The notes under the pieces are model-generated. The model did no database searches, was not told the DNA's origin, and saw nothing but the letters and a program-made list of their open reading frames with translations. The translations under genes were made by a program, and so were the position numbers. A DNA stretch of 64,000 bases from Escherichia phage vB_ESM-pEJ01: the sequence record OP114734.1. One strand, written 5' to 3'. Below are positions 51,558 through 55,020 of the stretch, in pieces. How positions within the stretch are numbered: position 1 is the stretch's first letter; each line of letters begins with the position of its first letter.

Positions 51558-51585
51558 ATTATAGCATTGTGATTATCTTTGTCAA
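51558..51585 (-). promoter_or_regulatory. early-type promoter (-35 TTGACA, 16 nt, -10 TATAAT)
   Basis: Follows terminator 51590..51624. Confidence 0.5.
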
Positions 51586-51589
51586 CACC

Positions 51590-51624
51590 CAAAAACAAAA
51601 AAGGCTACCCCGAAGGATAGCCCA
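51590..51624 (-). terminator. rho-independent terminator after glycine-rich gene
   Basis: GGGCTATCC-ttcg-GGGTAGCC hairpin followed by TTTTTTGTTTTT. Confidence 0.6.
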
Positions 51625-51629
51625 TAAAA

Positions 51630-52406
51630 TTACACGCGAGCACCGTAGATCGTGCCTACTTTATCCCAGCGTGGAGCATTACCAGTAACAGCCTTACCAG
51701 CAGCACCGCCGTTATATTCTGTACCGTTACCTTGAGTATTACATCTTCCTCCAGCAGCACCGACATTACCACCCGAACCGCCTGTATATGCACTAAGAGA
51801 CCCCTCACCAACAGATCCTTTACCAGGAGCGGAAATAGTACCAGCAGTTGCACCGGAACTCATATGAGAGGAAGACCCACCAGCACCGAATGGGCGACCA
51901 CCGCCGCCGCCAAATACTAGTCGACCCCTGTTACCGCCGCCACCGCCGCCACCGCCGCCAGCGATAGCACCGTTATTTGTAATTCGTAGACGTGTACCGA
52001 TAGCGTTATTGATTGCGTTTCCACCAGCAGCGCCAGCAGCGTTACTACCACCATTACCCCCACGTCCGTAGACAGTCACATCGGAGTTGATGATCAGTGT
52101 TACATACTCGTTTGTTAACGAGCTAGGGAAGTCAAGACAAGGAACGCCAGTAGATTGGGAAACAATATTACCTGTGATAGTAATTACTACAGGAGTAGAT
52201 CCTTGTGCTTTCATCCAGTTAATAAGAGTGTCTTTATTGTAAGAGTTACTAGCACCAATGCTATAATGAATCTCTTTAGAGCGTCCGACCATTGCCGACA
52301 TATACGCCGGACGACCTAAGCGTACAGCTTGCATTGCGGCGCTCATCCACCGTTGACCAGTCTCGGACACAGCAGATGATCCTACCCATCCAGAAGATAT
52401 TGCCAT
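51630..52406 (-). CDS. glycine-rich protein (258 aa), function unknown
   Basis: C-terminal 150 aa ~45% Gly with G9 and G5 runs; N-terminal ~110 aa ordinary. Confidence 0.5.
   Translation of the reverse strand: MAISSGWVGSSAVSETGQRWMSAAMQAVRLGRPAYMSAMVGRSKEIHYSIGASNSYNKDTLINWMKAQGSTPVVITITGNIVSQSTGVPCLDFPSSLTNEYVTLIINSDVTVYGRGGNGGSNAAGAAGGNAINNAIGTRLRITNNGAIAGGGGGGGGGNRGRLVFGGGGGRPFGAGGSSSHMSSGATAGTISAPGKGSVGEGSLSAYTGGSGGNVGAAGGRCNTQGNGTEYNGGAAGKAVTGNAPRWDKVGTIYGARV
51890..51962 (-). repeat. (GGC/GGT)n trinucleotide tract encoding poly-Gly
   Basis: Plus strand ccgccgccaccgccgccaccgccgcca and neighbouring ccgccgccgcc. Confidence 0.7.
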
Positions 52407-52460
52407 AAAATTTCCTCACAAGAAAAGCCCCATTTAAGGGGCATTGATTGATAATATTAC

Positions 52461-52682
52461 TTAGATGATCTCTGCTTCACCATTCAGGAAGAAAGACCAT
52501 GTTTTGTTAGGATAGCGAAGCGCCCATGATTCAGCGGTTTTAACACCAGCTTCGAACAATTGACGGCTGGTTACTTTCGCCATACCATCTTCAATGTCAA
52601 CGTTTTCAATAATCATCGGGTACTTAGCGCCACGCATGAAACCGAAGCCAGCGGAAGATTTGATAATTTTAACAGTTGCCAT
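52461..52682 (-). CDS. hypothetical protein (73 aa)
   Basis: Start set at MATVKII (ATG 52682) downstream of promoter 52723..52751. Confidence 0.4.
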   Translation of the reverse strand: MATVKIIKSSAGFGFMRGAKYPMIIENVDIEDGMAKVTSRQLFEAGVKTAESWALRYPNKTWSFFLNGEAEII

Positions 52683-52722: not shown

Positions 52723-52751
52723 ATTATGCAATAACACCGGATCGCTGTCAA
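52723..52751 (-). promoter_or_regulatory. early-type promoter (-35 TTGACA, 17 nt, -10 CATAAT)
   Basis: Minus strand TTGACA 52751..52746. Confidence 0.5.
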
Positions 52752-53056: not shown

Positions 53057-53403
53057 GCCAGACCTCGCAAAACACTAATAGCATAATCATGCTGGTTATT
53101 CATAATATCAATTGCATTGTGATAACGAGCTAAACCATCAAGGATAAATTCTTGTTTATCCTGTTTCAGTTTGGTATCACGCGCAGCCATAAGAGCATCA
53201 AGAACAGGTCCAAAGTGATTATCTAATTCATCTTCGGTTGCAATGTTTCCTATTGCCTCGTCGATCCGTGATTCTAATGCTTGCTTTTCGTTGATCACTT
53301 GCTGGGTATATTCCAACACATCAAGAATATCGCGGGTAACGTCGCCATGATAAGGTATTCCCGCATGAAGATGATCAATTAATCGCTGAATATCAATGTT
53401 CAT
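53053..53403 (-). CDS. hypothetical protein (116 aa)
   Basis: ORF. Confidence 0.4.
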   Translation of the reverse strand: MNIDIQRLIDHLHAGIPYHGDVTRDILDVLEYTQQVINEKQALESRIDEAIGNIATEDELDNHFGPVLDALMAARDTKLKQDKQEFILDGLARYHNAIDIMNNQHDYAISVLRGLA

Positions 53404-53966: not shown

Positions 53967-53995
53967 ATTATGCTATACCCTATTCCGGTTGTCAA
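53967..53995 (-). promoter_or_regulatory. early-type promoter (-35 TTGACA, 17 nt, -10 CATAAT)
   Basis: Conserved leader CACACATCGACAACAAAGGAG follows. Confidence 0.5.
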
Positions 53996-54000
53996 CACCT

Positions 54001-54031
54001 AAAAACGAAAAAGCCACCCTTTCGGATGGCT
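54001..54031 (-). terminator. rho-independent terminator
   Basis: GCCATCC-gaaa-GGGTGGC hairpin followed by TTTTTCGTTTTT. Confidence 0.6.
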
Positions 54032-54264
54032 TTTGATTATATTTTATTCACGTCCATTTGTATAGTAGTGTTTGAATCGACCTTTGCTAAACTAGTTAAA
54101 CATAGTAACCAATTCACCATCCCTTTCCAATGATAACCCTTCCTCGTCTTAGACGGGTCTTCCGATTCGGCAGTAATTGAACACGCGAAAGTATGAGGAA
54201 GCCAAATAGTTGTGTTAATGCTAGTATTCTTTTACTTCTGGTATGCATCCCACGGTGACTAACA

Positions 54265-54952: not shown

Positions 54953-55020
54953 AAGTCATTCCCCCAGATTAAAAATATTCAGTTATATTTATAATCTGGG
55001 GCTTTATTTATGATTAACTC

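What the first reader, a model, noticed from the sequence alone, without database searches (positions are those of the whole stretch)
51630..52406. Glycine-rich protein with poly-Gly tract encoded by a trinucleotide repeat
The C-terminal 150 aa are ~45% glycine with G9 and G5 runs (NGAIAGGGGGGGGGNRGRLVFGGGGGRPFGAGG) encoded by (GGC/GGT)n at 51890..51962. This is unexpected in the early region: similar glycine-rich motifs are known from T-even gp38 adhesins and from Gly-rich bacteriocins. The repeat is a likely slipped-strand hotspot that could vary the tract length.
Basis: seen in the sequence. Interest (0 to 1): 0.5.

Follow-up and report, generated by a model that had tools for sequence, protein, structure and literature searches.

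The report
Phage gp38 tail-fibre adhesin gene
The glycine-rich ORF is the well-known gp38 receptor-binding adhesin that caps the long tail fibres of RB49-like (Krischvirus) coliphages; its poly-glycine runs are conserved structural elements and its odd position among early genes is already documented, so the finding is ordinary.

Summary
The ORF at 51630-52406 (minus strand, 258 aa) is real and has G9 and G5 runs. It is not an unknown protein. It is gp38, the long-tail-fibre adhesin of a Krischvirus (RB49/JSE/Phi1 group).

- **Identification:** Pfam GP38 (1.2e-72) and Gp38_N (3.9e-18); full-length match to the S16 gp38 crystal structure 6F45_D (4.8e-52); AlphaFold model (pLDDT 93) with TM 0.82-0.85 to 6F45_D; DNA 97.6% identical to phage JSE.
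- **Glycine runs:** they are the conserved glycine-rich motifs that form the polyglycine-II sandwich. The G9 run aligns with S16 central helix 3.
- **Tract length:** six Krischvirus genomes all have nine Gly codons with differing wobble bases. 55 of 94 homologue clusters have G9, and most of the rest differ by substitution. Only four rare clusters have in-frame deletions; two checked at DNA level lack 9 and 15 nt. Slippage may occur, but length is selected, not variable.
- **Position:** the gene does sit in the early arm, far from gene 37. The literature already states this for RB49.
- **Corrections:** glycine is 33% of the last 150 aa, not about 45%. There is no bacteriocin link.
- **Open point:** no late promoter lies upstream of the gene.

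The parts
51630..52406 (-). Gene 38: gp38 long-tail-fibre adhesin (receptor-recognising protein), 258 aa plus stop codon
   Evidence: ORF list. Pfam GP38 1.2e-72 and Gp38_N 3.9e-18. phrog_2056 'tail fiber protein; host specificity' 9.9e-99. PDB 6F45_D 4.8e-52. 97.6% DNA identity to the JSE gene; annotated 'gp38 distal long tail fiber adhesin' in Phi1.
52287..52406 (-). N-terminal attachment domain (aa 1-40) that docks gp38 onto the gp37 trimer tip. W7 and W20 are conserved; the third attachment aromatic is Y35
   Evidence: Pfam Gp38_N covers 1-40 of 40 profile positions. Alignment to S16 gp38. Residue counts across homologues. Role of the three Trp residues from the S16 structure description in PMC6851490.
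51696..52067 (-). Glycine-rich region (aa 114-237): glycine-rich motifs alternating with hypervariable segments, modelled as the polyglycine-II sandwich receptor-binding domain
   Evidence: Alignment A4 shows invariant Gly columns separated by variable blocks. AF2 model pLDDT 93.1, TM 0.82/0.85 to 6f45_D. GRM/HVS architecture from PMC3157838 and PMC6851490.
51933..51959 (-). G9 run (aa 150-158), encoded by (GGC GGC GGT)x3; counterpart of S16 gp38 helix 3 (151-GGGGGGGG-158), the central PGII helix
   Evidence: Aligned to the S16 G8 run. The role of helix 3 is given in PMC6851490. Nine Gly codons in all six Krischvirus genomes, with different wobble bases.
51912..51932 (-). Hypervariable segment between the two Gly runs (aa 159-165, NRGRLVF). 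In other gp38 lineages it is replaced by unrelated 12-13 aa segments
   Evidence: Segment table. DNA alignment with GEC-3S and Sf20 shows a 15-nt longer, unrelated insert there.
51897..51911 (-). G5 run (aa 166-170), part of the nearly invariant GGGGGRPFG motif
   Evidence: G167-G170, R171, P172, F173 and G174 are invariant or nearly invariant in alignment A4.
51714..51719 (-). Codons E230 and Y231, the positions where RB49 host-range mutations (E230K, Y231S) were selected experimentally
   Evidence: Sequence. Mutations reported in Golomidova et al. 2022, PMC9569957.
52427..52442 (-). GC hairpin (GCCCC-TTAAAT-GGGGC) followed by TTTTCTT, 20 nt upstream of the g38 start codon; terminator- or attenuator-like
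   Evidence: Terminator scan. The stem is invariant in 6 genomes, with one variable loop base. Annotated as a terminator in GEC-3S. The RNA fold centroid is just this stem.
52723..52751 (-). Nearest upstream promoter: sigma-70-like TTGACA-17-CATAAT in front of the 73-aa ORF080 homologue (52461-52682) that precedes g38
   Evidence: Promoter scan, 11 of 12 matches. Conserved in 6 genomes. A promoter is annotated at the matching position in GEC-3S.
51558..51623 (-). Downstream terminator hairpin (51602-51623) plus a perfect sigma-70 promoter TTGACA-16-TATAAT (51558-51585). This is a PeSL-type promoter/stem-loop cassette that ends the g38 unit and restarts early transcription
   Evidence: Scan, 12 of 12 matches. 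Conserved in 6 genomes. Terminator and promoter annotated in GEC-3S. PeSL definition in Arbiol et al. 2010, PMC2839356.

Best explanation
The ORF is gene 38 of an RB49-like (Krischvirus) coliphage. It encodes the monomeric adhesin that caps the tip of each long tail fibre and recognises the host receptor. The N-terminal roughly 40 residues dock onto the trimeric gp37 tip. The middle of the protein forms a small beta-helix. The glycine-rich motifs, including the G9 and G5 runs, fold into left-handed polyglycine-II helices packed as a three-layer 'polyglycine sandwich'. The variable segments between them form the distal loops that contact the receptor. For RB49-type phages the published receptors are certain O antigens and OmpA. 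On this reading the G9 run is a structural element (the central PGII helix) held at fixed length by selection, not a tunable repeat. As in all sequenced Krischvirus genomes examined, the gene is displaced from its usual place after gene 37. It lies in a hyperplastic early-gene region, bracketed by stem-loops and sigma-70 promoters. Shown here: the identity, fold, conservation and position. Taken from the literature: the virion location and the receptors. Inferred: how the gene moved, plausibly by recombination at PeSL cassettes. How it is transcribed is unknown.
For: Family and fold: Pfam GP38 244.8 bits (cut-off 25) and Gp38_N 65.6 bits. phrog_2056 9.9e-99. Full-length phmmer match to S16 gp38 6F45_D (4.8e-52) and to PP01 gp38 9V85 (1.9e-34). 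AF2 model pLDDT 93.1, pTM 0.84. Its only significant Foldseek PDB hits are 6f45_D (TM 0.82/0.85, rmsd 2.7) and 9v85. Identity: 95-97.6% DNA identity to gene 38 of JSE, RB49, Phi1, ELT3 and KFS-EC; 22 kb of surrounding window is about 97% identical to the same phages. Synteny is identical in Phi1, JSE, RB49, GEC-3S and Sf20. Structural role of the runs: the query G9 aligns to the S16 G8 run, described as helix 3 with a saturating H-bond network (PMC6851490). G150-G156 are invariant or nearly invariant across 45 diverse homologues. Partner: Phi1 gp37 has a C-terminal Peptidase_S74 chaperone domain, as in S16/T2-type fibres. Function in this phage group: RB49 host-range mutations map to gp38 E230/Y231, which are present here. 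Adhesin-type evolution: the C-terminal part is 73-76% identical to GEC-3S and Sf20, while the flanks and the N-terminal domain are 94-100% identical. Displacement: Phi1 g37 is at 151.6-154.6 kb on the plus strand, followed by a 79-aa ORF and the holin t, whereas g38 is at 45.0-45.8 kb on the minus strand. This is stated in Trojet et al. 2011.
Against: Nothing contradicts the identification. Three minor departures were seen. The third attachment-domain tryptophan of S16 is a tyrosine (Y35) here, as in 28 of 93 homologues. Gene 37 of this phage is not in the window, so the partner was checked only in Phi1. No T4-type late promoter precedes the gene, which is unusual for a virion component.
Confidence: 0.97

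Rival explanations
1. The Gly-codon repeat is a functional contingency locus: replication slippage changes the tract length and so diversifies the adhesin or its host range.
For: The G9 run is a perfect 9-nt unit repeated three times in this phage and in JSE. Among 94 homologue clusters, four carry in-frame deletions inside the run: P0012 -5 aa, and P0030, P0027 and P0115 -3 aa each. At DNA level, P0012 lacks exactly 15 nt and P0030 exactly 9 nt within the repeat.
Against: Six Krischvirus genomes all keep 9 Gly codons while the wobble bases differ, which is the signature of purifying selection on length. 55 of 94 clusters have G9. The G8 and G7 forms are substitutions at positions 157-158 with the register kept. 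The deletion variants are clusters of 1-2 member sequences, three of them from automated assemblies and the fourth from an ENA contig. The run aligns to the S16 run that forms the central PGII helix, where shortening should disrupt packing. Deletion analysis of T6 gp38 found individual GRMs essential (PMC3157838 abstract). A 3n repeat cannot switch the gene on and off. Known host-range changes in RB49 map to loop residues, not the tract.
Confidence: 0.04
2. The protein is a T4-type gp38 assembly chaperone, as the JSE and RB49 GenBank records label it ('distal long tail fiber assembly catalyst'), and not a virion adhesin.
For: Annotation strings in EU863408 and AY343333.
Against: The sequence and the predicted fold match the T2/T6/S16/PP01 adhesin type. 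The adhesin gp38 of T2/T6 type is described as unrelated to the T4 version of the gene (PMC3157838 abstract and PMC6851490). RefSeq, Phi1 and later records call it adhesin, host specificity or receptor-recognising protein. RB49 host-range mutations map in it.
Confidence: 0.02
3. The ORF encodes a glycine-rich bacteriocin or toxin carried as an early-region accessory gene.
For: Only the glycine richness and the location among small early ORFs.
Against: No Pfam family other than GP38/Gp38_N matches at E<=1. No PDB fold match other than gp38 adhesins has E<=0.001. Full-length homology to structurally and genetically characterised adhesins.
Confidence: 0.005

Closest known systems
gp38 of phage RB49 and relatives (JSE, Phi1, Cognac49, Whisky49): Krischvirus long-tail-fibre adhesin
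   Same: 95-98% identical in DNA and protein, the same 258-aa length, the same G9 and G5 runs, the same displaced locus between nrdC/dam/49 and rI/tk with the same flanking small ORFs, hairpins and promoters. E230 and Y231 are present.
   Different: A few amino-acid substitutions only. No record in the phage collection is identical over the 22-kb region (best about 97%), so this is another isolate or strain of a known genus.
Salmonella phage S16 gp38 (PDB 6F45 chain D), the structural archetype with the polyglycine-II sandwich
   Same: Full-length alignment (E 4.8e-52) and predicted fold TM 0.82-0.85. The N-terminal attachment domain, beta-helix, Gly-rich motifs and C-terminal motif are all aligned. 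The G9 run aligns with S16 helix 3.
   Different: 42% identity. G9 instead of G8. Different hypervariable loops. Y35 in place of the third attachment tryptophan. Here the gene does not lie beside gene 37, its usual position in T2, T6 and Ox2.
T2/T6/PP01 gp38 adhesins (PDB 9V85; Tequatrovirus/Mosigvirus)
   Same: Same Pfam family, the same GRM/HVS modular design and the same C-terminal PxWxxVGxIYGxRV motif. T6 gp38 (P0096) is 55% identical.
   Different: Different HVS content and receptors (Tsx, OmpF, OmpC, FadL versus O antigen/OmpA for RB49-type phages, per PMC12032242 and PMC9569957). In T2, T6 and Ox2 gene 38 lies just beyond gene 37 (PMC3157838), whereas here it is tens of kb away.
T4 gp38 (tail-fibre assembly chaperone)
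   Same: Same gene number and the same involvement with the distal half-fibre. Legacy annotations use its product name.
   Different: The sources read here describe the T4 version as unrelated or very different in sequence and say the receptor is recognised by the gp37 C-terminal domain in T4 (PMC3157838, PMC6851490). That T4 gp38 is absent from the virion is established background knowledge, not taken from a paper read here.

Membership tests
gp38 tail-fibre adhesin (Pfam PF05268 GP38 / PF21721 Gp38_N; T2-T6-S16 type) | Sequence membership above the curated thresholds of both family models | tested here: met
   GP38 244.8 bits against cut-off 25, covering profile 1-218/218. Gp38_N 65.6 bits against cut-off 25, covering 1-40/40.
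gp38 tail-fibre adhesin (Pfam PF05268 GP38 / PF21721 Gp38_N; T2-T6-S16 type) | Three-domain fold: N-terminal helical attachment domain, beta-helix, polyglycine-II sandwich | tested here: met
   AF2 model pLDDT 93.1. Foldseek gives 6f45_D TM 0.82/0.85 and rmsd 2.7 over 271 columns, and 9v85_C TM 0.76/0.88. No other PDB hit has E<=0.001. This rests on a predicted, not a solved, structure.
gp38 tail-fibre adhesin (Pfam PF05268 GP38 / PF21721 Gp38_N; T2-T6-S16 type) | Conserved glycine-rich motifs alternating with hypervariable segments, in conserved order | tested here: met
   Alignment of 45 homologues shows invariant or nearly invariant Gly columns (G114, G116-117, G128-129, G150-156, G167-170, G210, G212-213, G219, G234, G237) separated by variable, indel-rich blocks. 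Matches the GRM/HVS scheme of PMC3157838.
gp38 tail-fibre adhesin (Pfam PF05268 GP38 / PF21721 Gp38_N; T2-T6-S16 type) | Three conserved tryptophans in the attachment domain that plug into the gp37 tip | tested here: inconclusive
   W7 and W20 are present. The third position is Y35, not W. Among homologues this position is W in 47, Y in 28 and another residue in 18. It is an aromatic substitution typical of the RB49-like group; its effect on binding was not tested.
gp38 tail-fibre adhesin (Pfam PF05268 GP38 / PF21721 Gp38_N; T2-T6-S16 type) | Conserved C-terminal motif (PxWxxVGxIYGxRV) | tested here: met
   The query ends PRWDKVGTIYGARV, the commonest ending among homologues (30 of 109). P245, W247, G251 and G255 are invariant.
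gp38 tail-fibre adhesin (Pfam PF05268 GP38 / PF21721 Gp38_N; T2-T6-S16 type) | Partner gp37 with a self-cleaving C-terminal intramolecular chaperone, onto whose matured tip gp38 binds | tested here: inconclusive
   Gene 37 is outside the window. In Phi1 (95% identical g38), gp37 (980 aa) has Peptidase_S74 at aa 872-931, E 1.2e-11. This is expected, but not shown, for the phage in the window.
gp38 tail-fibre adhesin (Pfam PF05268 GP38 / PF21721 Gp38_N; T2-T6-S16 type) | Gene located immediately downstream of gene 37 (the usual arrangement, not a strict requirement) | tested here: not met
   The neighbours are small early-type ORFs. In Phi1, g37 is at 151.6-154.6 kb (+) and g38 at 45.0-45.8 kb (-). 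This exception is documented for RB49 (PMC3157838), so it does not argue against membership.
gp38 tail-fibre adhesin (Pfam PF05268 GP38 / PF21721 Gp38_N; T2-T6-S16 type) | Present at the fibre tip and determines receptor specificity | not testable with these tools
   Supported for the RB49 group by published host-range mutants in gp38 and by O-antigen/OmpA dependence (PMC9569957). Not tested for this isolate.
Simple-sequence contingency locus (slippage-driven variable repeat) | Repeat number varies among closely related isolates | tested here: not met
   Nine Gly codons in all six Krischvirus genomes despite synonymous changes. G9 in 55 of 94 clusters, and the G8/G7 forms are substitutions. 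Only 4 rare deletion variants were seen.
PeSL-flanked cassette of T4-type hyperplastic regions (Arbiol et al. 2010) | Gene bordered by composite stem-loop plus near-consensus sigma-70 promoter elements | tested here: inconclusive
   Downstream there is a clear stem-loop plus a 12/12 promoter (51558-51623). Upstream there is a stem-loop alone (52427-52442), with the promoter one ORF further up (52723-52751). The PeSL paper does not mention g38.

The most novel reading that the evidence does not exclude
In Krischvirus phages the displaced adhesin gene has lost late-promoter control. It has no (T/A)ATAAATA motif of its own. It sits 20 nt behind a terminator-like hairpin, and its nearest promoter is a sigma-70 early promoter one small ORF upstream. 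The adhesin would then be made on an early schedule or only by terminator read-through, decoupled from the gene 34-37 late operon, or from a promoter type not yet recognised in these phages.
Probability: 0.3. Interest if true: 0.3.

Novelty: already known. Interest (0 to 1): 0.08.

Why it matters
It matters little as a discovery. gp38 adhesins, their glycine-rich motifs, their crystal structure and the displaced position of the RB49 gene are all published. The practical value is in annotation. Several public records of the same gene still call it 'hypothetical protein', 'tail assembly' or 'assembly catalyst', yet it is the main host-range determinant of a phage group used in therapy cocktails. 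The one point that could repay work is regulatory: how a virion protein gene embedded among early genes, without a recognisable late promoter, is expressed at the right time and dose.

Tried and rejected
1. Bacteriocin or toxin reading: rejected. Only the GP38 and Gp38_N Pfam families match, and only gp38 adhesins are significant PDB fold hits.

2. Assembly artefact: rejected. The same tract is found in six independent genomes and in most homologue clusters.

3. Search for a late promoter for g38:
   - The exact motif TATAAATA occurs once in the 64 kb, at 54986-54993 in front of rI.
   - Among one-mismatch matches, the only minus-strand site between g38 and rI is TATGAATA at 53097-53104. It lies inside a coding sequence, so its conservation is uninformative.
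   - Nolan et al. 2006 list no RB49 late promoter before g38.
   - Expression therefore remains unresolved.

4. RegB idea: early neighbours might carry GGAG Shine-Dalgarno sites while g38 carries GAGG. It was not pursued, because only 29 of 110 crude minus-strand ORFs have GGAG, so the contrast is not informative.

5. Leader RNA structure: folding the 81-nt leader gave z = 0.01. Nothing is there beyond the 5-bp GC hairpin.

6. Desplats et al. 2002 (PMC135041), the RB49 genome paper, is not held in the library.

7. The PeSL paper (PMC2839356) does not mention g38.

8. Small flanking ORFs: the 73-aa and 96-aa window ORFs and Phi1 ORF252 match only PHROG families of unknown function.

Full report
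**Observation**

The window holds an ATG-to-TAA ORF of 258 codons at 51630-52406 on the minus strand. The G9 run is aa 150-158 (window 51933-51959) and the G5 run is aa 166-170 (51897-51911). The G9 run is encoded by GGC GGC GGT repeated three times. Tandem Repeats Finder reports this as (ACCGCCGCC)x3.1 at 51933-51960.

One number is wrong. Glycine makes up 32.7% of the last 150 residues, not about 45%, and 22.5% of the whole protein. The coordinates and the runs are confirmed; the composition figure and the 'trinucleotide repeat' description are only roughly right.

**What it is**

Every search gives the same answer.

- Pfam GP38 (PF05268) matches aa 45-258 over the whole 218-position profile at 1.2e-72. 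Gp38_N (PF21721) matches aa 1-40 at 3.9e-18.
- PHROG 2056 'tail fiber protein; host specificity' matches end to end at 9.9e-99.
- The protein aligns over its full length with chain D of PDB 6F45, the gp38 adhesin of Salmonella phage S16 (4.8e-52). It also aligns with the receptor-binding domain of PP01 gp38 in 9V85 (1.9e-34).
- An AlphaFold2 model built on 45 homologues is confident (pLDDT 93.1, pTM 0.84).
- Its only significant Foldseek matches in the PDB are those two gp38 structures. The match to 6f45_D has TM 0.82/0.85 and rmsd 2.7 A; every other hit has E >= 5.
- At DNA level the gene is 97.6% identical to phage JSE and 95-97% identical to RB49, Phi1, ELT3, KFS-EC and ECD7, all Krischvirus.
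- The surrounding 22 kb is about 97% identical to the same phages.

The window therefore comes from an RB49-like coliphage, and the ORF is its gene 38.

**How it works**

The mechanism is taken from the literature on this family and mapped here by alignment. In T2, T6, S16 and RB49-type phages a single gp38 molecule caps the trimeric gp37 at the tip of each long tail fibre and recognises the receptor (PMC9569957; PMC6851490).

The S16 structure has three parts: an N-terminal helical attachment domain, a five-ring beta-helix, and a three-layer 'polyglycine sandwich'. In the sandwich, ten glycine-rich motifs form left-handed polyglycine-II helices. The hypervariable segments between them form the distal loops proposed to bind the receptor. 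The longest motif, '151-GGGGGGGG-158', is helix 3, whose backbone is fully hydrogen-bonded to neighbouring helices.

The G9 run of the window protein aligns with that S16 run. In an alignment of 45 diverse homologues, G150-G156 are invariant or nearly invariant and positions 157-158 are G, A, W, N or Q. The GGGGRPFG block that holds the G5 run is almost invariant. The glycine runs are thus load-bearing structure.

For RB49 itself, host-range mutants map to gp38 E230K and Y231S, and the phages use certain O antigens and OmpA. E230 and Y231 are present here.

As expected for an adhesin, divergence is concentrated in the receptor-binding part. Against GEC-3S and Sf20 the C-terminal 400 nt are 73-76% identical, while the N-terminal domain and several kb of flanks are 94-100% identical. 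The segment between the two Gly runs is swapped for an unrelated, longer one.

**The slippage idea**

- In six independently sequenced Krischvirus genomes the run is always nine Gly codons. The wobble bases differ: GGC GGC GGT x3 in the window and JSE, other mixes of GGC, GGT, GGA and GGG in Phi1, RB49, GEC-3S and Sf20. Conservation of length and amino acid through synonymous change is the signature of purifying selection. It also shows that the perfect 9-nt repeat is only one synonymous state.
- Among the 94 homologue clusters (of 120 retrieved) in which the anchor motifs could be found, 55 start with G9, 20 with G8 and 9 with G7. The G8 and G7 forms are substitutions with the register kept.
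- True length changes exist but are rare. P0012 lacks 5 residues. P0030, P0027 and P0115 each lack 3. Each is a cluster of one or two sequences.
- I fetched the DNA of two of them. P0012 (run ERR689735) lacks exactly 15 nt and P0030 (SRR21291524) exactly 9 nt inside the repeat, both in the same genomic context.
- Four other clusters (P0077, P0099, P0112, P0116) have the two Gly runs fused with the intervening segment deleted.

Deletion within or between the Gly-codon repeats therefore does happen, or is produced by sequencing. That is compatible with slippage and with the published view that the glycine-rich motifs act as recombination sites (PMC12032242). Such alleles do not spread, and a 3n repeat cannot act as an on/off switch. 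The run is a constrained structural element, not a tunable tract.

**The position**

All ORFs of 150 aa or more near it are on the minus strand. The neighbours correspond to the Phi1 stretch between nrdC/dam/49 and rI/tk.

In Phi1, genes 34-37 are at 145.0-154.6 kb on the other strand. Gene 37 is followed by a 79-aa ORF and the holin t, whereas gene 38 is at 45.0-45.8 kb. The arrangement is identical in JSE, RB49, GEC-3S and Sf20.

This is already in print. Trojet et al. [quoted passage not shown]

The region is one of the hyperplastic regions rich in promoter/stem-loop cassettes (PeSLs), which Arbiol et al. 2010 proposed as recombination sites for gene shuffling. Directly downstream of g38 there is a clear example: a 9-bp hairpin followed by a perfect TTGACA-16-TATAAT (51558-51623). 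That such elements mediated the move of g38 is my inference. The PeSL paper does not discuss g38.

Phi1 gp37 carries a C-terminal Peptidase_S74 intramolecular chaperone domain. This is the fibre type that gp38 adhesins cap.

**One loose end**

T4-type late genes are driven by TATAAATA, or (A/T)ATAAATA in RB49 (PMC1524935). Phi1 genes 34 and 36 have perfect copies 36-41 nt upstream.

In the whole 64-kb window the motif occurs once, against 5.9 expected from shuffles. It lies at 54986-54993 in front of rI, 2.6 kb upstream of g38. Nolan et al. likewise predict only that one late promoter in this arm of RB49 and none before g38.

Two terminator-like hairpins lie between that promoter and g38. One is at 54009-54034. 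The other is a 5-bp GC stem with a U-run at 52427-52442, only 20 nt before the g38 start codon. The nearest promoter is a sigma-70-type TTGACA-17-CATAAT at 52723-52751, ahead of a 73-aa ORF of unknown function. The whole leader is about 97% identical in six genomes.

It is not known whether g38 is made from the early promoter by read-through, from the rI late promoter by read-through, or from an unrecognised promoter. This is the only part of the locus I would call unexplained. It is a modest question.

**Comparison with known systems, and verdict**

The protein is a member of the gp38 adhesin family by sequence, predicted fold, motif architecture and C-terminal motif.

- The one non-canonical residue noted is Y35 in place of the third attachment tryptophan. 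It is shared with 28 of 93 homologues.
- The one non-canonical genomic feature is the displaced position, which is genus-wide and published.
- It is not the T4-type gp38 chaperone, although the JSE and RB49 GenBank records still carry that product name.
- It has nothing to do with glycine-rich bacteriocins.

Novelty: already known. Interest: low.

Noticed in passing
window 54986-54993 (-): This is the only exact TATAAATA (T4-type late promoter motif) in the 64-kb window, against 5.9 +/- 2.5 expected from shuffles; all 100 shuffles had at least one. It lies about 35 nt upstream of the rI homologue and corresponds to the single late promoter (Pl:48756) that Nolan et al. predicted in this arm of RB49. 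The motif looks depleted in the early arm.
   Followed up: partly
window 51558-51623 (-) and 53967-54034 (-): Composite terminator-hairpin plus near-consensus sigma-70 promoter elements (PeSL-type cassettes as described for RB49/Phi1) lie between small ORFs. The first has a 12/12 promoter match with a TG extension.
   Followed up: partly
window 51630-52030 versus L005 (GEC-3S) and L006 (Sf20): There is a sharp divergence island: the receptor-binding two-thirds of g38 is 73-76% identical, while the N-terminal domain and several kb on each side are 94-100% identical. This indicates recombinational replacement or diversifying selection confined to the specificity domain.
   Followed up: yes
window 52302-52304 (codon Y35 of gp38): The third of the three attachment-domain tryptophans described for S16 gp38 is a tyrosine here and in 28 of 93 homologues, mostly the RB49-like group. 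It may co-vary with the Krischvirus gp37 tip.
   Followed up: partly
L002 40328-40567 (Phi1 ORF252, record 154627-154866): A 79-aa ORF of unknown function (phrog_402, no Pfam hit) occupies the slot between gene 37 and the holin t, where gene 38 sits in T2/T6-type phages.
   Followed up: partly
public records EU863408, AY343333, MH560358, MZ504878, OX001802, OR352938 (hits H1, H16, H4, H14, H12, H11): The same gene is labelled inconsistently across records: 'distal long tail fiber assembly catalyst' (a legacy T4 name), 'hypothetical protein' or 'tail assembly'. These are annotation errors for a key host-range determinant.
   Followed up: no
proteins P0077, P0099, P0112, P0116 (homologue clusters): These gp38 variants have the hypervariable segment between the two Gly runs missing, so the runs are fused. 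They look like deletions by recombination between the Gly-codon repeats. Whether they are functional is unknown.
   Followed up: no
literature: PMC12032242: That paper states that in some Krischvirus isolates (FL04, FL15, FL20) gp38 lies near the holin, but not in FL37/FL38. All five Krischvirus genomes whose locus I examined (Phi1, JSE, RB49, GEC-3S, Sf20) have the displaced position. I did not check the FL genomes, so a second arrangement within the genus is possible.
   Followed up: no
window 52461-52682 (-): A 73-aa ORF (RB49 ORF080 homologue, phrog_7345, unknown function) lies immediately upstream of g38 with its own early promoter. It stays adjacent to g38 in every genome and metagenomic contig examined (L001, L003-L008), so the two may form one transcription unit.
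   Followed up: partly
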